Of a stretch of 7,379 nucleotides of DNA, positions 1 through 7,379 are shown one piece after another. A program made the translations under genes and the position numbers. The notes under the pieces were generated by a model. It did no database searches and was not told where the DNA came from. It worked only from the letters and a program-made list of their open reading frames with translations. How positions within the stretch are numbered: position 1 is the first letter of the stretch; each line of letters begins with the position of its first letter. The DNA is from a virus (taxonomy: Duplodnaviria; Heunggongvirae; Uroviricota; Caudoviricetes). The stretch lies in IMG/VR virus record IMGVR_UViG_3300028969_000089. The stretch is one strand, 5' to 3'.

Positions 1-82
1 AAATGTGGCCTGGCTGCACTCTGAAGTCACCGCATGGATGGCCGGGCGCATTGCCGGACGCAAACGGGGGTACGACGCATGA
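1..82 (+). CDS. 3' end of Vis/AlpA-family small DNA-binding regulator (5' truncated by window edge)
   Basis: Aligns base-for-base with 6744..6825, the 3' end of the complete 88-aa ORF 6559..6825. Reading frame ends at stop TGA 80..82, encoding ...[26 protein letters not shown]. Confidence 0.6.
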
Positions 83-117
83 TGATGCCCGCTCTGCAAA
101 AACTCCCTTTTTCTGGC

Positions 118-147
118 TTGCCTTTTTCCGGCATTTGCGGATATAGT
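118..147 (+). promoter_or_regulatory. Sigma70-like promoter, candidate early promoter of the left operon (P4 PLE equivalent)
   Basis: TTGCCT (118..123), 18-nt spacer, TATAGT (142..147), directly downstream of the vis stop. Identical hexamers at 6861..6866 and 6885..6890 in copy B. Confidence 0.4.
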
Positions 148-210
148 TTTTCCGCTGTCGCAAAATCGGCAGCCGGGCGTGAGAACCCGAGCAATTCACA
201 GGCGACATAT

Positions 211-232
211 GACGCGCCACGCGTCTTTTTTT
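211..232 (+). terminator. Intrinsic terminator-like hairpin in the leader
   Basis: GACGCG (211..216), loop CCA, CGCGTC (220..225), then seven T (226..232). Copy B keeps a GACGC/GCGTC stem plus T7 at 6954..6975. Confidence 0.45.
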
Positions 233-390
233 GTGTCGCAATCAATGCCACAGAGCGCCAGATTATGGTGTGGTGTGTGGTCAGTCGTGCAGATGGCATT
301 CCGTGCATCCTGCCCGCGTCCGCTCATTATGCCGCAGAGTCAATGGTAGCTCAGGCGGGGCAGCCTCCGGGCTGGCCGGTATCCTGTGAA

Positions 391-452
391 GCCGGTATTC
401 TCACCCCCGTCTGGGCTATCGCCATCGAGCGTGAGAACTCCGGCGATAGCGT
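391..452 (+). ncRNA. Candidate CI-like immunity RNA core (62-nt block identical in both repeat copies)
   Basis: The 62 nt at 391..452 are identical to 7125..7186 while the 10 nt immediately upstream and the sequence downstream differ. Contains a 9-bp stem GCTATCGCC (415..423) / GGCGATAGC (442..450) with an 18-nt loop exposing GTGAGAAC (431..438), and an upstream TTCTCAC (398..404) complementary to GTGAGAA. Confidence 0.35.
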
Positions 453-480
453 TATTTGCTATTCACAGGAGGCTGCCATC

Positions 481-678
481 ATGGCTACAACCCTTACCCC
501 CTCACACCCTGAATTTGTCTTTGTGTTTGCGGCTGTCCGTCGCGCAGACCGTCATCCCCGTATCTGTATGCTTCGCACCGTCGCCGGTGATGAACGCAGT
601 GCCCGCCGTTCCCTTGTCCGTGACTATGTGCTCTCCCTTGCTGCCCGTCTGCCGGTGGTGGAGGTGTCCCGTGCGTAA
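481..678 (+). CDS. Small conserved protein (65 aa) downstream of the CI-like block; function unknown (Kil/Eps position of a P4-type left operon)
   Basis: ATG 481 preceded by AGGAGG (467..472) with an 8-nt spacer. Copy B (7215..7379) differs at only three positions across the 55 aligned codons, all synonymous third-base changes (ACA/ACG, CCC/CCT, TGT/TGC). Confidence 0.55.
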
Positions 679-958
679 TAAAAAAGCCCCTCAGACCGTC
701 TCAGCGCGTCATGACGCCCGTGAACACCTCAGCATTGAGGCTTATCATAAGCTCAACCGTGCCAGCGCCGTATCCCAGTTTGTTGGGGGTGATTTGATTC
801 ACCGTGAACTCTCCGGCCTGCATCAGCTCTACATTCCGCATATTTTCAGCTACCTGAATGAAGATATTGATTTTGTGCTGAATGAGCTGAAAGCCAAAGG
901 CCTGTGCCGCGATTTTCTCGCCCAGCAGAAAGACCGGGGAGACAGGACGCATGTTTGA
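671..958 (+). CDS. Hypothetical small protein (95 aa), probably translationally coupled to the preceding ORF
   Basis: GTG 671 overlaps the upstream stop (GTGCGTAA) and is preceded by GGAGG (660..664). No in-frame ATG. The long 190-aa frame 386..958 would have to run through the conserved RNA block, so the short form is preferred. Confidence 0.4.
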
Positions 959-1011
959 TTTTCCCCAGCTCCACCACTTGCTCTTCCGGATACGTCCGGA
1001 GAAATCCTAAA

Positions 1012-1044
1012 AGCCCGCATGGCACAAGCTCTGCGGGCTTTTTT
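1012..1044 (+). terminator. Rho-independent terminator closing the upstream module
   Basis: Perfect 8-bp stem AGCCCGCA (1012..1019) / TGCGGGCT (1032..1039) with a 12-nt loop, followed by a T-run to 1044; A-run precedes the stem. Confidence 0.55.
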
Positions 1045-1088
1045 GTGTCTACCATTGTCCGAGGATATCCAGCTAAATCCAGTGATTA

Positions 1089-1140
1089 TTGGTATACGTT
1101 TAGGTATACGGTAGGATGTATACCTAAACGCGTATACCAA
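1089..1140. promoter_or_regulatory. Imperfect 21-bp inverted repeat with four GGTATAC/GTATACC heptamers upstream of int; candidate integrase or regulator binding region
   Basis: Left arm TTGGTATACGTTTAGGTATAC (1089..1109) and right arm GTATACCTAAACGCGTATACCAA (1118..1140) are reverse complements apart from one inserted base, separated by 8 bp, ending 20 bp before the int start. Confidence 0.4.
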
Positions 1141-1160
1141 TTCATGAAGGAGCGGCCACA

Positions 1161-2372
1161 GTGGCAAGAACGACACGCCCCCTGACCAACACAGAAGTTC
1201 TGCGCGCTAAAGCGTTAGAAAAGGATCTAACGTTACATGATGGCGATGGCCTTTTTCTGCTCGTTAAAACGAACGGTAAGAAGTTGTGGCGTTTCCGTTA
1301 TCAACGTCCAGCAACAAAACAGCGGACAATGATGGGGCTTGGTGCTTTCCCCGCCCTTTCACTTGCTGATGCTCGAAGGTTAAGAGCGGATTACCTTGCT
1401 TTGTTGGCTAATGGTATAGACCCACAAGTTCAAGCTGAATTTATCGAAGAACAACAACAGATAGCTCTAGACAGTATTTTTTCGACTGTTGCGACCAACT
1501 GGTTCCAGATAAAAAGCAAAAGCGTTACCCCTGATTACGCTAAAGATATATGGCGCTCACTGGAAAAAGACGTATTCCCTGCCATCGGGGAGATTCCTGT
1601 CCAGCAAATAAAAGCCCGAACACTAGTTGAAGCCCTTGAGCCAATCAAAGCTCGTGGAGCACTCGAGACAGTGCGCCGACTTGTACAGCGCATTAACGAG
1701 ATAATGATTTATGCCGTAAACACTGGTCTGATTGATGCCAATCCAGCATCAGGTGTTGGGATGGCCTTTGAAAAGCCCAGAAAACAAAACATGCCGACGC
1801 TGAGGCCAGAAGAATTACCAAAGCTGATGCGTTCTTTGTTCATGTCAAATCTGTCTGTTCCGACTCGCTGTCTCATTGAATGGCAGCTTCTGACTCTAGT
1901 GCGTCCTGCTGAAGCTTCCGGTGCTCGATGGGCAGAGATCGATCTCGATGCAAAGCTCTGGATGATTCCAGCCGAACGGATGAAGGCCAAACGAGAGCAC
2001 ATAGTTCCTTTATCCACGCAGGCATTAGAAATTCTAGAAGTGATGCAACCTATTAGCGCACATCGTGAGCATGTTTTCCCAAGCAGAAATGACCCTAAAC
2101 AACCAATGAATAGCCAGACTGCGAATGCCGCGCTTAAGCGCATTGGTTATGGTGGGAAGCTTGTTGCTCATGGATTACGTTCTATAGCAAGTACAGCACT
2201 AAATGAAGCTGGTTTTAATCCGGACGTAATTGAAGCGGCACTTGCTCACAGTGATAAAAATGAAGTTCGAAGAGCATACAATCGTTCAACTTACCTTGAA
2301 CAACGTATAGACTTGATGAATTGGTGGGGTGAATTTGTGCACAACCGCCACCGCCTCATGCAAGCGATTTAA
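1161..2372 (+). CDS. int: P4-type tyrosine integrase (site-specific recombinase)
   Basis: 403-aa ORF starting GTG 1161 with AAGGAG at 1147..1152. N-terminal arm-binding-type sequence (LHDGDGLFLLVKTNGKKLWRFRYQ) and C-terminal catalytic signature HGLRSIAS ... RAYNRSTY typical of P4-family integrases. Confidence 0.9.
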   Translation: MARTTRPLTNTEVLRAKALEKDLTLHDGDGLFLLVKTNGKKLWRFRYQRPATKQRTMMGLGAFPALSLADARRLRADYLALLANGIDPQVQAEFIEEQQQIALDSIFSTVATNWFQIKSKSVTPDYAKDIWRSLEKDVFPAIGEIPVQQIKARTLVEALEPIKARGALETVRRLVQRINEIMIYAVNTGLIDANPASGVGMAFEKPRKQNMPTLRPEELPKLMRSLFMSNLSVPTRCLIEWQLLTLVRPAEASGARWAEIDLDAKLWMIPAERMKAKREHIVPLSTQALEILEVMQPISAHREHVFPSRNDPKQPMNSQTANAALKRIGYGGKLVAHGLRSIASTALNEAGFNPDVIEAALAHSDKNEVRRAYNRSTYLEQRIDLMNWWGEFVHNRHRLMQAI

Positions 2373-2399: not shown

Positions 2400-3758
2400 A
2401 TGCCAAATAACTACCATCAATACATCGAAGACGTTAGTGATGATATAAAGACATGTCTTGAAGGAATGGGATGCCAACCCATACTTTTTGTTGGATCGGG
2501 ATTAACCAAGAGATATCTTTCTGGCCCAAACTGGGAAGAACTTCTTCAGCAACTTGCTAATGAATGTCCTAACATCGATAAAAGATTTGCCTATTATAAA
2601 CAGAAATACCCCGAGTTGATTGATATCGGCAGTGTATTTTCTGATTCTTATAACGAGTGGGCATGGGGTGATGGAGAGAAAGAATTTCCAGCAGAGTTAT
2701 TTGATGCAGGCAATGAGCCAAGTATTTATTTTAAATACAAAGTATCTAGTATTTTCAACTCATTGTTACAAGAAAAAGAAATCGTAAACAACGGTGAAAT
2801 TGAACTTCTGAGAAAGATTCACCCTCATTCAATCATCACAACAAATTACGACAAATTACTTGAATCGATATATCCTGAGTTTACCCCCATTATAGGCCAA
2901 AAAATCCTTTACGCTAATCACGGTAGCATTGGTGAAATACTTAAAATACATGGTTGCTGCTCCACTCCTGAAAGCATAATAATAAACCGCGATGACTACG
3001 ATGACTTCATAAAGAAGAAGAAATATTTAAGCGCAAAACTGCTTACTTTCTTTGCTGAACACCCTCTTCTATTTATAGGTTACAGCGCAGAAGACTCGAA
3101 CATAAAAAACATACTATCTGATATTGATGAACTACTTTCAGAAAATGGAGATGTCATTCCAAATATATACATTTTAGAATGGACGAGCAAACAAAATGAA
3201 AGTGAATACCCACGCCGTGAACGGCTGATTCAAGTATCTGCAAACAAAAGCATTAGAATAAAAAGTATAGTAGCAAATGACTTCTCTTGGGTATTTTCAG
3301 CGTTTGGCGCGAACAGAGCACTTGATAACATAAATCCCAAATTATTGAGGGCACTTTTAGCTCGCACTTACGATCTCGTCAGAACTGATATACCTCGCAA
3401 TCCTGTCCAAGTTGATTACCGAGTTTTATCAAGCATTAGCGAGTCAGAAGGTGAATTAGCGAAATTATATGGTATCGCCACATCGTCAGATGGTATGGCA
3501 TTTAATGCCAGTTATCCTTTTACTTTAACCACGCTAGGGCAATCACTTGGTTTCAAAGGCTGGCATGATGCGAACAAACTATTAGAAGTAGTTAAAAACA
3601 TCACGAACGTAGACATCAAGACATTCGATAACAAATACCACTATGCAATAATGAACGGTGATGAGATTCAGTCCCATAGATATTCAAACTATCTTCGAGA
3701 ACTCCTCGAAAAGGTTAGGGATGGAGAGGAGTTTGAGTTAGGAATAAAGGCTCCATAA
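2400..3758 (+). CDS. SIR2-like (SIR2_2-type) putative NAD+-hydrolase, candidate standalone antiphage defence protein with an uncharacterised C-terminal domain
   Basis: 452-aa ORF with AAGGAG at 2388..2393. Motifs read directly: ILFVGSGLTKRYLSGPNWEELL (Gly-rich NAD pocket), ITTNYD (Asn149, codon 2844..2846), KIHG (His184, codon 2949..2951), LFIGYSAED. Gene is markedly AT-rich against GC-rich flanks and starts 25 bp after the int stop. Confidence 0.8.
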   Translation: MPNNYHQYIEDVSDDIKTCLEGMGCQPILFVGSGLTKRYLSGPNWEELLQQLANECPNIDKRFAYYKQKYPELIDIGSVFSDSYNEWAWGDGEKEFPAELFDAGNEPSIYFKYKVSSIFNSLLQEKEIVNNGEIELLRKIHPHSIITTNYDKLLESIYPEFTPIIGQKILYANHGSIGEILKIHGCCSTPESIIINRDDYDDFIKKKKYLSAKLLTFFAEHPLLFIGYSAEDSNIKNILSDIDELLSENGDVIPNIYILEWTSKQNESEYPRRERLIQVSANKSIRIKSIVANDFSWVFSAFGANRALDNINPKLLRALLARTYDLVRTDIPRNPVQVDYRVLSSISESEGELAKLYGIATSSDGMAFNASYPFTLTTLGQSLGFKGWHDANKLLEVVKNITNVDIKTFDNKYHYAIMNGDEIQSHRYSNYLRELLEKVRDGEEFELGIKAP

Positions 3759-4128: not shown

Positions 4129-4701
4129 TTACACAGACTGACGTGATGCCAGTTGCGCACTTTTACGCGAAAAAATCATGTTCTGCGCAGGGGTGAATTT
4201 TTCACGGCTGTCATCCACCGAAGCCGCGTCAGGCCTGAATCCGATGGCCGTTAAAATGTCGCTATCCTGTGCGGAATAATTAATTTTTTCCCCCTTCGCA
4301 AGCCAGGACAGAAGGGCTTCACGCAGGGCATCTGTGGCACGCTGTATGGCACAGTTTCGGGCAATGACCGTCAGCTCACTGTAGCCCATCAGCTCCGGTG
4401 CCAGTGCCGCCGCCAGTGCTGTGCCGTGCTGCTGCATAAAATCATTCAGCCGGTCGCGGATGCTGATGTGCTGAACGGCTTCATGCGAACGAATATAACG
4501 ACCGGCGGCCTGATTCACCTGCCATTTTCTGACTTCGATAATATTGCGTAATTCGTCCAAGCGACTGACGTTTCTGCCTTCTCCTGACAGAAGCCGCAGA
4601 TATTCCTGTTCGGCCGCAGCCAGCTCATTTTTGCGTTGCAGCCATGCTGCTTTGTTATTCTGACAGGTGTCAAAGGCCTGCTGTAAGGCTGTGCTTTCCA
4701 T
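4129..4701 (-). CDS. psu: Polarity suppression protein Psu (P4 capsid decoration / Rho antagonist)
   Basis: 190-aa ORF whose sequence (MESTALQQAFDTCQNNKAAWLQRKNELAAAEQEY...) matches my recollection of P4 Psu in length and sequence. Last gene of the sid-delta-psu late operon. Confidence 0.85.
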   Translation of the reverse strand: MESTALQQAFDTCQNNKAAWLQRKNELAAAEQEYLRLLSGEGRNVSRLDELRNIIEVRKWQVNQAAGRYIRSHEAVQHISIRDRLNDFMQQHGTALAAALAPELMGYSELTVIARNCAIQRATDALREALLSWLAKGEKINYSAQDSDILTAIGFRPDAASVDDSREKFTPAQNMIFSRKSAQLASRQSV

Positions 4702-4774: not shown

Positions 4775-5275
4775 TCATTCCAGACGCAGCGAATATGATT
4801 GTGTTTTTAACCGTACTGGCGGCAGTTCCTGTTTTTCATGCAGGCGTTCTGCCAGTTCGTCCGGTGTGACCGGGCGGACAATGAAGCGGTTGATGGTCTG
4901 AAGCGTTTTAAACACCAGACCACATCCCGGATCCGTGCACACATAAAAACGCTCGGTGACTTCCTGAGACAGACGCCGCGATGTTCTTGACAGTGCAAGG
5001 CCTTTACATCTCCGACAACAATATCCGGTAACAAGCATTCTTTTCGGGCGTTTCATACTGCCGGAGGCTGACGTCAGTGAATCGCGGTATCTCTGTTTGC
5101 CTGAAATGTATTCCATTCCTGAATCTTTACAGTCAGAGAAAAAGCTTTCACTCGCTTCAAATGTCGCAGAGCAATAAATATTCCGGCACTGTGCAATCAT
5201 TATCTTGGTGCCATCGTCCATGAAATGTGCGCGACGGGTGTGAGCAACATGTCCACACGACGGGCAGTAAATCAT
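4775..5275 (-). CDS. delta: Delta, Ogr/Delta-family zinc-finger late transcription activator
   Basis: 166 aa, the length of P4 Delta. Two Ogr-like halves each with Cys pairs (CPSC...CRNIYC and CCRRC...CTDPGC). Start overlaps the sid stop in an ATGA junction at 5272..5275. Confidence 0.85.
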   Translation of the reverse strand: MIYCPSCGHVAHTRRAHFMDDGTKIMIAQCRNIYCSATFEASESFFSDCKDSGMEYISGKQRYRDSLTSASGSMKRPKRMLVTGYCCRRCKGLALSRTSRRLSQEVTERFYVCTDPGCGLVFKTLQTINRFIVRPVTPDELAERLHEKQELPPVRLKTQSYSLRLE

Positions 5276-6006
5276 GACAGCAGTCCTCTGGCCTTAAGCT
5301 CTGCTCCCTGCTGGTCTATTTTGTCCTGCCACACCTTGCGCTGTGCCGGTGTGCCTGCCACCTCATAATCCATGTGCGGGAGTGTTGCCGCTGACAGTCC
5401 GGTCAGCCGGAGAACCGGCTCGCCGGTGAGGCTGATTTGCATCTGTTTAATTTTCTGTTCCAGCGATGATTTCACCTGCTGCATGACAGCCTTTTCCGGT
5501 GCGACGTAGCCCTGATGGCCGGTGGTGTTGGCGAGCGGATTTTCCTGTACCAGGATACTCAGATGCATTGCCCGGACAAGCGCCTCACAGGTTTCATTTA
5601 GGGCGTGTTCCAGCTCATGCTCTGCATACAGACTCAGAAGGTGATGATGTGCCTTCCGGTAGGCGGTGGCCGTGCTGTCACACGCCCCTTTCAGGCGTTC
5701 ACGTTCGAAATTCAGCACCACGGCCAGATTGTCATATTCCTGTACCAGCTCCCGGCGTGCCACGCGCTCAATGTGGCGCTGTTTCAGCTCGTCGCTCAGG
5801 ACACCACCGGCTGCACGAAAGGCCGTGCGCCAGTCGTCAGCGTCGTTTCCGTCGGCCTGCGCCAGCGCATTTTTTTCCTGCTCTGCCCGTTCAATGGCCG
5901 TGATGGTCTCATCCATCAGGCGGGCGTTCTCAAGATGAGCGGCTCTGGCCTTTTCCAGTTGTGCCAGCGCGGGTTGCAGATATTCAGGGATGGTGTTGTC
6001 AGACAT
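5272..6006 (-). CDS. sid: Sid, external scaffold / capsid size determination protein
   Basis: The ORF track extends to 6072, but the ATG at 6004..6006 (MSDNTIPEYL...) has a GGAG 6 nt upstream and gives 244 aa, matching P4 Sid as I recall it. The upstream ATG would overlap the predicted promoter dyads. Confidence 0.8.
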   Translation of the reverse strand: MSDNTIPEYLQPALAQLEKARAAHLENARLMDETITAIERAEQEKNALAQADGNDADDWRTAFRAAGGVLSDELKQRHIERVARRELVQEYDNLAVVLNFERERLKGACDSTATAYRKAHHHLLSLYAEHELEHALNETCEALVRAMHLSILVQENPLANTTGHQGYVAPEKAVMQQVKSSLEQKIKQMQISLTGEPVLRLTGLSAATLPHMDYEVAGTPAQRKVWQDKIDQQGAELKARGLLS

Positions 6007-6040
6007 TTTCCGGCTCCTCGTCACTTCAGGTTGAGAAAAT

Positions 6041-6096
6041 TGTGACGTACACCGGACAACAACACGACGCATTGCAGATGTGCCAGCCCTGACACA
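6041..6096 (-). promoter_or_regulatory. Candidate Psid late promoter with two Ogr/Delta-type TGT-N12-ACA dyads
   Basis: Dyads TGT-N12-ACA at 6041..6058 and 6079..6096, centres 38 bp apart. If the distal dyad is at -55 the start site falls near 6032, about 26 nt upstream of the sid ATG, and the proximal dyad near -17. Confidence 0.5.
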
Positions 6097-6175
6097 GGAG
6101 ACTCATCCTCAGACCGGCAAGCCAGGAAAAGGTCGCAGGAAAAACCGGCTTACTGTTTGTTTTTTTATATTTTAC

Positions 6176-6279
6176 TGTTCACCTCTGTTCACCATAAGAA
6201 AAAAGATAAGTAATACAGTAAGTTAAATGGTGAACAATCGCAGTAATGACTGTTCACCGTCTGTTCACCACTGTTCACC
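6176..6279. repeat. Iteron array: six TGTTCACC octamers (ori/crr-like replication element)
   Basis: Octamers at 6176, 6186, 6251, 6262, 6272 (direct) and 6229..6236 (inverted). Adjacent direct copies are spaced 10 to 11 bp, with an AT-rich stretch between the clusters. TGTTCACC is the repeat I recall as the P4 alpha-protein binding site in ori and crr. Confidence 0.55.
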
Positions 6280-6382
6280 CGCTCATGGACTTTTTGTGCT
6301 GTTTACTACTGTTTGTTTTTATTAATTCGCCGGGAATGAATAAGAAGAAACGATTTGTATTTCACTATAAAAATTACGAATT

Positions 6383-6412
6383 GCTTTAAGTGGCTTTAAA
6401 TGACTTTAAGTG
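6383..6412. repeat. Three tandem 10-bp repeats upstream of vis
   Basis: GCTTTAAGTG (6383..6392), GCTTTAAATG (6393..6402), ACTTTAAGTG (6403..6412): head-to-tail and helically phased. Confidence 0.4.
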
Positions 6413-6438
6413 GGAATGAACAAAAAACACACAGTCAT

Positions 6439-6558: not shown

Positions 6559-6825
6559 ATGCAAGCTGTTTTTTCTTCCCCGTCTCCCTCCCCTGTGACG
6601 CCACTGATGCCGCTGCCGGACATCACGCAGGAGCGTTTTTTACGTCTGCCGGAAGTGATGCACCTGTGCGGCCTGTCACGTTCGACCATCTATGAACTCA
6701 TCCGTAAGGGGGAATTTCCGCCGCAGGTGAGTCTTGGCGGTAAAAATGTGGCCTGGCTGCACTCTGAAGTCACCGCATGGATGGCCGGGCGCATTGCCGG
6801 ACGCAAACGGGGGTACGACGCATGA
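6559..6825 (+). CDS. vis: Vis/AlpA-family small DNA-binding regulator / excisionase-like protein
   Basis: 88-aa ORF with an AlpA-type helix-turn-helix core ([43 protein letters not shown]). Position between the late promoter region and the early promoter matches P4 vis as I recall it. Confidence 0.75.
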
Positions 6826-6860
6826 TGATGCCTGTTCTGCAAAAACTCCCTTTTTCTGGC

Positions 6861-6890
6861 TTGCCTTTTTCCGGCATTTGCGGATATAGT
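6861..6890 (+). promoter_or_regulatory. Sigma70-like promoter, copy B of the candidate early promoter
   Basis: TTGCCT (6861..6866), 18-nt spacer, TATAGT (6885..6890); identical to copy A. Confidence 0.4.
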
Positions 6891-6953
6891 TTTTCCGTTG
6901 CCGCAAAATCGGCAGCCGGGCGTGAGAACCCGAGTATGTTATCGGCGACATAT

Positions 6954-6975
6954 GACGCGCCATGCGTCTTTTTTT
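6954..6975 (+). terminator. Leader hairpin plus T7, copy B
   Basis: GACGC (6954..6958) / GCGTC (6964..6968) with a 5-nt loop, then seven T (6969..6975). Confidence 0.4.
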
Positions 6976-7124
6976 GTGTCGCAATCAACGCCACAGAGCA
7001 CCAGATTATGGTGTGGCGTGTGGTTTGCCGTGCAGGTATGATCCTGTTCGCAATCGCATGTTATGCCTCTGAGTCAATGGTAGCTCAGGCGGGGCAGCCT
7101 CCGGGCTGGCCGGTTTCCGATAAC

Positions 7125-7186
7125 GCCGGTATTCTCACCCCCGTCTGGGCTATCGCCATCGAGCGTGAGAACTCCGGCGATAGCGT
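7125..7186 (+). ncRNA. Candidate CI-like immunity RNA core, copy B
   Basis: 62 nt identical to 391..452, flanked by diverged sequence. Confidence 0.35.
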
Positions 7187-7214
7187 CATTTACGCTGTTA
7201 TCGGAGGTTGCCTT

Positions 7215-7379
7215 ATGGCTACGACCCTTACCCCTTCACACCCTGAATTTGTCTTTGTGTTTGCGGCTGTCCGTCGCGCAGACCGTCATCCCCGTATCTG
7301 CATGCTTCGCACCGTCGCCGGTGATGAACGCAGTGCCCGCCGTTCCCTTGTCCGTGACTATGTGCTCTCCCTTGCTGCC
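7215..7379 (+). CDS. Small conserved protein, copy B (3' truncated by window end)
   Basis: ATG 7215 preceded by GGAGG. The 55 codons visible differ from 481..645 only at three synonymous sites. Confidence 0.5.

What the first reader, a model, noticed from the sequence alone, without database searches (positions are those of the whole stretch)
481..678. Small ORF under apparent purifying selection: every difference between the two copies is synonymous
Across the 55 codons visible in both copies (481..645 versus 7215..7379), the only three nucleotide differences are third-position synonymous changes, while neighbouring non-coding sequence carries many substitutions and indels. That supports a real 65-aa protein with a strong AGGAGG ribosome-binding site. 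Its function is unknown; by position it could be the Kil- or Eps-like early product of a P4-type left operon.
Basis: seen in the sequence. Interest (0 to 1): 0.5.

Follow-up and report, generated by a model that had tools for sequence, protein, structure and literature searches.

The report
Known kil gene of satellite phage P4
The small ORF is real and under purifying selection, but it is the already described kil gene of satellite phage P4 (100% identical protein), an Icd-like small toxic protein whose translation is gated by the satellite's antisense immunity RNA, so the finding is correct but ordinary.

Summary
481..645 and 7215..7379 differ at three sites (489, 501, 567), all third-position synonymous transitions. 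On its own this is weak evidence: P about 0.02-0.03, and the ORF's 1.8% divergence equals that of the conserved backbone around it.

Outside evidence settles it. The 65-aa product is 100% identical to phage P4 DNA, at the position of the published 65-aa kil gene. It scores 76 bits against NCBIfam NF033153, the host cell division inhibitor Icd-like family (cut-off 25). In 74 related loci from Enterobacterales the ORF is intact (63-66 aa) in 70. Median dN/dS is 0.17, against 1.5-1.8 in the shifted frames.

The ORF lies directly 3' of a C4/CI antisense RNA. The RNA's second loop co-varies with the bases just 5' of the kil Shine-Dalgarno, in about 10 specificity classes. The window's two copies belong to different classes, which explains the "noisy" flanks.

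kil is the 3' part of a longer in-frame ORF (eta, 79..678). Its stop overlaps the start of eps (671..958).

Novelty: already known.

The parts
481..678 (+). kil (copy 1): 65-aa Icd-like small protein. It is the 3'-terminal part of eta.
   Evidence: ORF. 100% identical to phage P4. NF033153 at 76.1 bits, E 1.6e-21. dN/dS 0.17 across 70 unique homologues.
7215..7379 (+). kil (copy 2): first 55 codons, cut by the window end.
   Evidence: Peptide identical to copy 1, with 3 synonymous differences. L003 carries the same immunity type and a full 65-aa ORF identical to P4 Kil.
462..477 (+). seqC-type target of the CI RNA (copy 1), overlapping the kil Shine-Dalgarno. TTCACAGGA (462..470) is complementary to CI loop 2. 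AGGAGG is at 467..472.
   Evidence: Read from the sequence. Loop/target covariation across 74 loci.
7197..7212 (+). seqC-type target (copy 2). GTTATCGGA (7197..7205) is complementary to the copy-2 CI loop 2. GGAGG is at 7203..7207.
339..426 (+). CI / C4 antisense immunity RNA, copy 1. Loop 2 is UCCUGUGAA at 382..390.
   Evidence: Rfam RF01695, 74.9 bits (gathering 45), E 9.9e-14. Same loop sequence as P4.
7073..7160 (+). CI / C4 antisense immunity RNA, copy 2. Loop 2 is UCCGAUAAC at 7116..7124, a different specificity.
   Evidence: Rfam RF01695, 76.2 bits, E 4.7e-14. Differences at 381, 385, 386, 388 and 390.
141..231 (+). seqA region, copy 1. It holds the upstream CI target (TTCACAGG at 193..200), an isrK-like leader RNA and an intrinsic terminator hairpin (211..225 plus a T run).
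   Evidence: Rfam isrK RF01394 at 66.8 bits, and c4-a1b1 RF03163 at 45.1 bits, just under its gathering score of 46.7. Terminator scan.
6884..6974 (+). seqA region, copy 2 (GTTATCGG at 6936..6943).
   Evidence: Rfam isrK at 67.5 bits and c4-a1b1 at 50.0 bits.
118..147 (+). Sigma-70-like promoter (TTGCCT, 18 nt, TATAGT) placed so that transcription would start near the isrK/seqA RNA. It is in the position expected for P4 PLE.
   Evidence: Consensus scan only. The assignment to PLE is an inference.
79..678 (+). eta-type long ORF (199 aa) in the kil frame. Its ATG 79..81 overlaps the alpA/vis stop TGA 80..82.
   Evidence: The frame is open for about 120 codons upstream of kil in nearly all loci. 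Described for P4 in PMC10111431.
671..958 (+). eps (helper derepression protein), 95 aa. Its GTG start overlaps the end of kil (GTGCGTAA).
   Evidence: Pfam PF25738 Derepression, 170.3 bits. P4 annotation.
6559..6825 (+). alpA / vis-type regulator that heads the left operon of the second element. The 3' end of the copy-1 equivalent is at 1..82.
   Evidence: Pfam Phage_AlpA, 74.2 bits.

Best explanation
ORF 481..678, and its partial second copy at 7215..7379, is the kil gene of a P4-type satellite phage. It is the first gene translated after the constitutive early promoter of the left operon.

Proposed mechanism:
1. The protein is a 65-aa member of the Icd-like family (predicted beta-hairpin plus helix). 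When made in quantity it most likely blocks host cell division, as P1 Icd does by binding FtsZ.
2. In the immune (lysogenic) state, the CI/C4 antisense RNA is cut out of the same transcript just upstream. Its second loop pairs with the bases immediately 5' of, and running into, the kil Shine-Dalgarno (seqC), and with a second copy of that site upstream (seqA).
3. kil is then not translated. Its C-rich, G-poor, unstructured 5' part is left bare, so transcription terminates and the downstream genes stay silent: eps, whose start overlaps the kil stop, and the replication genes beyond it.
4. When ribosomes do translate the region, termination is suppressed and the coupled downstream gene is expressed. 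Ribosomes reach it either from the kil start or from upstream as the long eta reading frame, which is coupled to alpA/vis.

What is shown here: the identity with P4 kil, family membership, purifying selection, the RNA gene, the loop/target covariation and the overlapping stop/start.

What is taken from the literature or inferred: killing, FtsZ as the target, and Rho-dependent termination inside kil.
For: - Identity: 65/65 aa identical to phage P4 (X51522 / NC_001609 8171..8365). There it is the last 65 codons of the old 'cI gene product (AA 1-137)' ORF and lies directly 5' of epsilon. Window 1..969 is 98% identical to P4.
- Family: NF033153 'host cell division inhibitor Icd-like' at 76.1 bits, cut-off 25. 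The P1-type Icd of phage D6 hits the same model at 50.3 bits. Pairwise BLASTP of Kil against D6 Icd gives 35% identity over 40 aa, E 2e-07. RefSeq annotates the same DNA in hundreds of E. coli genomes as Icd-like.
- Coding selection: 70 of 74 loci are intact at 63-66 aa. Median dN/dS is 0.17, against 1.5 and 1.8 in the shifted frames. 22 residues are invariant in the alignment of database homologues, and in the locus alignment the invariant residues still vary at third positions, for example codons 14-21.
- No RNA explanation: no Rfam hit lies inside the ORF at E <= 1. The ORF RNA folds worse than shuffled sequence, z = +1.46.
- Regulation: C4 RNA RF01695 at 339..426 and 7073..7160. There are 18 loop-2 variants in about 10 classes. 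Each is complementary to the 7-10 nt just 5' of its own kil SD. The mean exact match is 8.5 nt for cognate pairs and 2.7 nt for non-cognate pairs, and the same octamer is present in seqA.
- Coupling: the next gene's start overlaps the kil stop in nearly all loci, as GTGCGTAA, ATGCATAA or ATGA, whichever gene family follows.
- Composition: 470..520 is 42-47% C and 10-12% G.
- Literature: Kil is a truncated Eta that kills cells, eta is coupled to alpA, and its translation prevents termination (PMC10111431 citing Forti 1999). CI pairs with seqA and seqC to cause termination (PMC4825925). P1 Icd binds FtsZ, with its core at residues 12-51 (PMC11897509). That core corresponds to the NF033153 domain, which covers Kil 12-59.
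Against: - The primary P4 kil paper (PMC94026) could not be read here. The 65-aa length and the killing phenotype rest on a secondary summary and on my memory of its abstract.
- FtsZ targeting has been shown only for P1 Icd, which is about 35% identical over the N-terminal 40 residues. It has not been tested for P4 Kil.
- The fold search gave no significant match. The best Icd-like hit had E 0.48 and probability 0.96.
- The complementarity of CI loop 1 to the SD, seen in this window, is not conserved in loci with a different hairpin 1. Only the loop-2 pairing is supported by covariation.
- Four of the 74 loci have a broken or shortened ORF (L054, L072, L073, L076), so the gene is dispensable in some decaying elements.
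Confidence: 0.93

Rival explanations
1. The ORF matters only as a translated leader. Ribosome passage across it prevents Rho-dependent termination and delivers ribosomes to the overlapping downstream start, and the peptide itself has no function.
For: - The stop/start overlap with the next gene is conserved whichever gene follows.
- The 5' region is C-rich and unstructured.
- The literature states that translation of this region prevents termination.
Against: - A pure leader would not hold its amino-acid sequence. Median dN/dS is 0.17, 22 residues are invariant in the alignment of database homologues, and third positions vary about three times more than first or second positions.
- The peptide belongs to a family (NF033153) that includes P1-type Icd, a protein with a demonstrated toxic activity.
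- Both roles can coexist. This rival fails only as the sole explanation.
Confidence: 0.05
2. The biologically relevant product is the long Eta protein (79..678, 199 aa). The internal 65-aa start is incidental.
For: - The kil frame stays open for about 120 codons upstream in nearly all loci.
- The eta ATG overlaps the alpA stop (ATGA at 79..82).
- The 9-nt indel between the two copies keeps the frame.
- The upstream part matches Pfam Phage_ASH at 83.9 bits.
Against: - All 74 loci keep an ATG at the kil start. Nearly all keep a GGAG-type SD 7-9 nt upstream of it, the exception being L030, which has GGAA.
- The immunity RNA's target sits exactly on that SD and co-varies with the RNA. That makes sense only if initiation there is being controlled.
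- The upstream part of eta overlaps RNA genes, which by themselves constrain the sequence.
- The literature describes both products as nested genes, so this reading complements the best explanation and does not exclude it.
Confidence: 0.02
3. It is a chance ORF or a conserved RNA element. The three synonymous differences are a coincidence.
For: The in-window evidence alone is weak: P is 0.02-0.03, and the ORF's divergence equals that of the backbone.
Against: - The frame-specific dN/dS signal across 70 unique sequences.
- A curated HMM hit.
- No Rfam family and no excess RNA structure in the ORF.
Confidence: 0.005

Closest known systems
Phage P4 kil (nested in eta), left operon (Forti et al. 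1999, J Bacteriol 181:5225)
   Same: - Identical 65-aa sequence.
- Same position: after the CI RNA and before eps.
- Same nesting in a longer in-frame ORF coupled to alpA/vis.
- Copy 1 also has P4's own CI loop sequence.
   Different: Nothing in copy 1. Copy 2 encodes the same protein behind an immunity module of a different specificity: the CI loop 2, seqA and seqC all differ.
Phage P1 / P7 / D6 Icd of the immI operon (c4 - icd - ant)
   Same: - Same NCBIfam family, NF033153.
- Same architecture: an antisense RNA processed from the transcript, whose loop is complementary to the ribosome-binding region of a small toxic ORF, which in turn overlaps and is coupled to an anti-repressor-type gene.
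- As in P1 versus P7, specificity changes through paired changes in the RNA loop and its targets (from my knowledge of that literature).
   Different: - Only about 35% identity over the N-terminal 40 residues.
- The downstream gene is eps or a 75-aa gene, not ant.
- In P4 the RNA is reported to act through transcription termination as well as translation.
- FtsZ binding has been shown only for P1 Icd.
N15 gp32/cA, PY54 Icd and related telomere-phage 'secondary immunity' ORFs
   Same: 42-50% identity to Kil over about 55 residues. They are annotated as Icd or secondary immunity repressor, next to C4-like RNAs.
   Different: They sit in full temperate phages, not satellites. The 'repressor' annotations there probably repeat the old P4 mistake of reading the RNA gene as a protein (inference).
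Gifsy-1 isrK - orf45 - anrP locus of Salmonella
   Same: An isrK-type leader RNA (Rfam hits at 154..231 and 6897..6974). A small upstream ORF whose stop overlaps the start of an anti-repressor gene, and whose translation is needed for the downstream gene (PMC4825925).
   Different: There the orf45 peptide sequence is reported to be not conserved (nucleotide conservation only), whereas Kil is conserved as a protein. There the sRNA activates translation.
Lambda Kil / Rac KilR (FtsZ-directed prophage division inhibitors)
   Same: Small prophage-encoded proteins that are toxic on expression.
   Different: No sequence relationship was detected: the ORF matched no Pfam family at all at E <= 0.01. 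They share a name and a phenotype only.

Membership tests
P4 Kil | Amino-acid sequence of the P4 ORF that ends just before epsilon | tested here: met
   65/65 identical to X51522 / NC_001609 8171..8365. Annotated neighbours are shown.
P4 Kil | Position as the first ORF with its own SD downstream of the CI RNA gene in the left operon, upstream of eps | tested here: met
   C4/CI at 339..426, SD at 467..472, ATG at 481, eps at 671..958.
P4 Kil | Nested as the 3' end of a longer in-frame ORF (eta) that starts upstream of the early promoter | tested here: met
   The frame is open from ATG 79 (ATGA overlap with the alpA stop) to 678. The frame is open in nearly all of the 74 loci.
P4 Kil | Overexpression kills the host cell | not testable with these tools
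   Literature only (PMC10111431).
P4 Kil | Translation of the region suppresses the immunity-specific Rho-dependent terminator | not testable with these tools
   Consistent features only: a C-rich, G-poor, unstructured 5' part.
Icd-like host cell division inhibitor (NCBIfam NF033153) | Score above the curated cut-off of the family HMM | tested here: met
   76.1 bits against a cut-off of 25, covering profile positions 1-48 of 48. D6 (P1-type) Icd scores 50.3 bits.
Icd-like host cell division inhibitor (NCBIfam NF033153) | Located 3' of a C4-type antisense RNA whose loop is complementary to the ORF's ribosome-binding region | tested here: met
   RF01695 hits. Loop-2/seqC covariation across loci.
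Icd-like host cell division inhibitor (NCBIfam NF033153) | Stop overlaps the start of the downstream anti-repressor / derepressor gene (translational coupling) | tested here: met
   GTGCGTAA in the window. ATGA or ATGCATAA in nearly all loci. The coupling itself was not measured.
Icd-like host cell division inhibitor (NCBIfam NF033153) | Binds FtsZ and blocks Z-ring formation | not testable with these tools
   Shown for P1 Icd only (PMC11897509).
P4 Eps / Derepression protein (Pfam PF25738) | Match to the family HMM | tested here: not met
   The 65-aa ORF has no Pfam hit. The neighbouring ORF 671..958 scores 170.3 bits.
Lambda Kil-type division inhibitors | Sequence similarity to a Pfam family | tested here: not met
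   No Pfam family at E <= 0.01 for the ORF.

The most novel reading that the evidence does not exclude
P4-family Kil proteins are true functional homologues of P1 Icd, that is, FtsZ-binding division inhibitors. Their synthesis across Enterobacterales is gated by about ten mutually orthogonal CI-loop/seqC 'address codes'. The window would then show two heteroimmune satellite immunity modules side by side, encoding the same toxin behind different RNA locks. Neither the FtsZ target of P4 Kil nor the orthogonality of the classes has been tested, as far as I could find.
Probability: 0.5. Interest if true: 0.3.

Novelty: already known. Interest (0 to 1): 0.1.

Why it matters
It matters little as a discovery: the gene, its nesting in eta and its control by the CI RNA were described for P4 in the 1990s, and NCBI already names the family.

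It has three practical uses:
- It corrects a persistent annotation problem. The P4 reference records still call the overlapping 137-aa ORF 'cI gene product' or 'transcriptional repressor', and Pfam Phage_ASH models the RNA-overlapping part.
- It explains the patchy divergence between the two copies as co-varying immunity specificity, not as neutral noise.
- It provides a clean comparative data set (74 loci, about 10 loop/target classes) for anyone who wants to engineer orthogonal antisense switches or to test whether Kil acts on FtsZ.

Tried and rejected
- The primary paper on P4 kil/eta (PMC94026) is not held. I relied on the summary in PMC10111431 and on memory.
- The Pfam scan of the 65-aa ORF gave no family.
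- AlphaFold2 with 30 sequences gave a usable small model: pLDDT 77.8, strands at 12-20 and 27-35, helix at 38-56. Foldseek against viral predicted structures gave nothing significant. The best Icd-like hit had E 0.48, so no structural inference was drawn.
- I tested for an RNA element inside the ORF. There was no Rfam match and no excess folding energy, z +1.46. Rejected.
- I first read CI loop 1 (GGCAGCCUCC) as pairing with the SD (GGAGGCUGCC). This complementarity is lost in loci with a different hairpin 1, so I do not claim it as a general feature.
- I looked for the 880..1060 junction in complete E. coli genomes. None holds it in one piece, so the origin of the tandem arrangement is unresolved.
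- ARAGORN finds no tRNA or tmRNA gene in the window. Only the last ~12 nt of ssrA are present.

Full report
**What is in the window**

The window is a P4-type satellite region.
- On the + strand: a P4-family integrase (1161..2372) and a SIR2_2 protein (2400..3758).
- On the - strand: psu (4129..4701), delta (4775..5275) and a sid-like gene (5272..6072).
- Back on the + strand: alpA/vis (6559..6825).

These assignments come from the ORF list and the Pfam/NCBIfam scans.

The first 645 bases repeat the last 636 (1..645 against 6744..7379). The window therefore holds two copies of the start of the P4 'left operon'. One belongs to the complete element. The other (1..~969) belongs to an element that breaks off right after eps.

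**Checking the observation**

The alignment confirms three differences in 481..645 against 7215..7379, at 489, 501 and 567. All are third-position synonymous transitions. The ORF runs from ATG 481 to TAA 676..678. AGGAGG sits 8 nt upstream in copy 1, and GGAGG in copy 2.

The statistical weight is small. 27% of all possible single changes in these 55 codons are synonymous, and 32% of transitions are. Three out of three therefore has P = 0.019-0.033.

The contrast with the flanks is also misleading. The 53 upstream substitutions and the 9-nt indel are packed into four patches (192..200, 274..336, 381..390, 453..480). The other 370 nt differ at 1.9%, the same as the ORF's 1.8%. The in-window evidence is a hint only.

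**Identity**

A translated search of the phage collection finds the 65-aa product 100% identical to phage P4 (X02534, X51522, NC_001609 8171..8365).

In the P4 records it is the last 65 codons of the ORF once called 'ash' or 'cI gene product (AA 1-137)', and its end overlaps the start of epsilon. Window 1..969 is 98% identical to P4 (961 matches, 19 mismatches or gaps).

The published description of P4 says the following (PMC10111431 summarising Forti et al. 1999):
- Kil is a truncated form of Eta that functions in cell killing.
- Translation of eta prevents termination.

From memory of the 1999 abstract, Kil is a 65-amino-acid polypeptide and is the first gene translated from PLE. I could not open that paper.

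The window shows the same nesting. The kil frame is open back to ATG 79..81, which overlaps the alpA stop at 80..82.

**Family**

The ORF scores 76.1 bits (E 1.6e-21, cut-off 25) against NCBIfam NF033153, 'host cell division inhibitor Icd-like protein'. The P1-type Icd of phage D6 hits the same model at 50.3 bits. The two proteins align directly at 35% identity over their N-terminal 40 residues (E 2e-07).

RefSeq uses the same name for this DNA in E. coli. 1,306 of 5,426 complete genomes hold a match to 1..1160. The protein database search returned 239 relatives, mostly 64-66 aa, or about 110 aa when gene callers extended them into eta.

P1 Icd was recently shown to bind FtsZ and block Z-ring formation. 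Its active core is residues 12-51 (PMC11897509). That is the part covered by the HMM, which spans Kil 12-59.

**Purifying selection, tested properly**

One scan of species-representative genomes gave 74 loci, from Escherichia-like sequences out to Pantoea, Erwinia, Rosenbergiella, Edwardsiella and Serratia.
- Every locus has ATG at the expected place. 70 have an intact 63-66-aa ORF.
- L054 has a premature stop and L072 a frameshift. L076 and L073 carry in-frame deletions.
- Over 70 unique coding sequences, Nei-Gojobori counts give pooled pN/pS of 0.29 and median pairwise dN/dS of 0.17.
- The same alignment read in the +1 and +2 frames gives pooled pN/pS of 1.4 and 1.6, with median dN/dS of 1.5 and 1.8.
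- Summed column entropy is 24.6, 20.5 and 64.3 for codon positions 1, 2 and 3.
- Runs such as F-V-F-A-A-V-R-R (codons 14-21) are invariant or nearly so as protein while their third positions vary freely.

Those were frameshifts in homologues, non-synonymous saturation, and an overlapping RNA element.

**No hidden RNA in the ORF**

Rfam finds nothing inside 481..678 even at E <= 1. The ORF RNA is less stable than its shuffles (-48.3 against -53.7 kcal/mol, z = +1.46).

Its 5' part (470..520) is 42-47% C and 10-12% G. That composition is expected of a Rho loading region. It fits the reported immunity terminator, but I did not test this.

**How expression is controlled**

Directly upstream lie the following Rfam hits, all:
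- A C4 antisense RNA: RF01695 at 339..426 (74.9 bits) and 7073..7160 (76.2 bits).
- An isrK-like leader with an intrinsic terminator: 154..231 and 6897..6974.
- The a1/b1 target motif: RF03163 at 6884..6936 (50.0 bits) and 141..193 (45.1 bits, just below the gathering score).

In P4 terms these are the CI RNA and seqA.

The divergent patches between the two copies are coordinated. CI loop 2 is UCCUGUGAA in copy 1 and UCCGAUAAC in copy 2. The exact complements occur just 5' of the kil SD, running into it: TTCACAGGA at 462..470 and GTTATCGGA at 7197..7205. They occur again in seqA: TTCACAGG at 193..200 and GTTATCGG at 6936..6943.

Across the 74 loci there are 18 loop-2 variants, falling into about ten classes. 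The longest exact complement between a loop and the 26 nt before its own kil ATG averages 8.5 nt. For loops paired with non-cognate targets it averages 2.7 nt.

This is strong comparative support for the published model that CI pairs with seqA and seqC (PMC4825925). It places seqC on the kil ribosome-binding site.

It also means the two copies in this window are of different immunity specificity. Copy 1 is P4's own type.

One caution. In this window loop 1 (GGCAGCCUCC) is also complementary to the SD region. That does not hold in loci with a different first hairpin, so I do not generalise it.

**Downstream coupling**

The kil stop overlaps the next start in almost every locus.
- GTGCGTAA or ATGCATAA is used where an Eps-type gene follows (Pfam Derepression).
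- ATGA is used where an unrelated ~75-aa gene follows (no Pfam hit).

Conservation of the overlap across different downstream genes argues that ribosomes finishing kil/eta feed the next cistron. The same has been shown for icd-ant in P1 (my knowledge) and for orf45-anrP in Gifsy-1.

**Structure**

AlphaFold2 on a 30-sequence alignment gives a beta-hairpin (12-20, 27-35) followed by a helix (38-56), with pLDDT 77.8. Foldseek against viral models returned no significant hit. Nothing is concluded from it.

**Verdict**

The object is the textbook gene itself, not a new relative, so the novelty is nil. The remaining open points are experimental: whether P4 Kil acts on FtsZ as P1 Icd does, and whether the loop/target classes are truly orthogonal.

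Noticed in passing
window 382..390 / 193..200 / 462..470 versus 7116..7124 / 6936..6943 / 7197..7205: The two copies carry different CI (C4) loop-2 sequences, with matching changes in both target sites (seqA and seqC). They are two heteroimmune P4-type immunity modules. Across 74 loci about ten such classes exist, each with cognate complementarity.
   Followed up: yes
window 958..1160: The copy-1 element stops right after eps, inside the start of P4 orf151. It abuts the last ~12 nt of ssrA (CCAGCTCCACCA) followed by the integrase of the second element. In complete E. coli genomes the integrase side is preceded by intact ssrA. None of the 998 matching genomes holds 880..1060 in one piece. This is either a rare rearrangement or truncated tandem element, or an assembly chimera.
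   Followed up: partly
window 79..480 (the eta-specific part); P4 NC_001609 8168..8584: Pfam Phage_ASH (PF10554) matches the translated region that overlaps the CI RNA gene and seqA, not Eps (PF25738). P4 reference records still label the overlapping 137-aa ORF 'cI gene product / transcriptional repressor'. A P4-like satellite survey used PF10554 as its 'epsilon' marker (PMC8628076).
   Followed up: partly
loci L009-L076, immediately 3' of kil: In most non-P4-type loci kil is followed, through an ATGA overlap, by a conserved ~75-aa gene with no Pfam match, not by eps. It is probably the '75 aa protein absent from P4' noted in PMC8628076. Whether it replaces Eps functionally is unknown.
   Followed up: partly
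window 2400..3758 (+): A 452-aa SIR2_2-domain protein (Pfam 95.4 bits) sits between int and psu, the known defence-system hotspot of P4-like satellites.
   Followed up: no
window 6130..6420: The sid-alpA intergenic region holds repeated CTGTTCACC / TGTTCACC motifs and repeated 'ctttaagtgg' / 'ctttaaatg' motifs. It corresponds to the region the P4 record annotates as origin of replication, with type 1 and type 2 repeats.
   Followed up: no
window 912..1044: A weak Rfam match to IsrM (32.7 bits against a listed gathering score of 376). The same stretch (965..1119) is 85% identical to a Salmonella houtenae record in the phage collection. It probably reflects shared sequence at the ssrA-adjacent att region and not an IsrM gene.
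   Followed up: no
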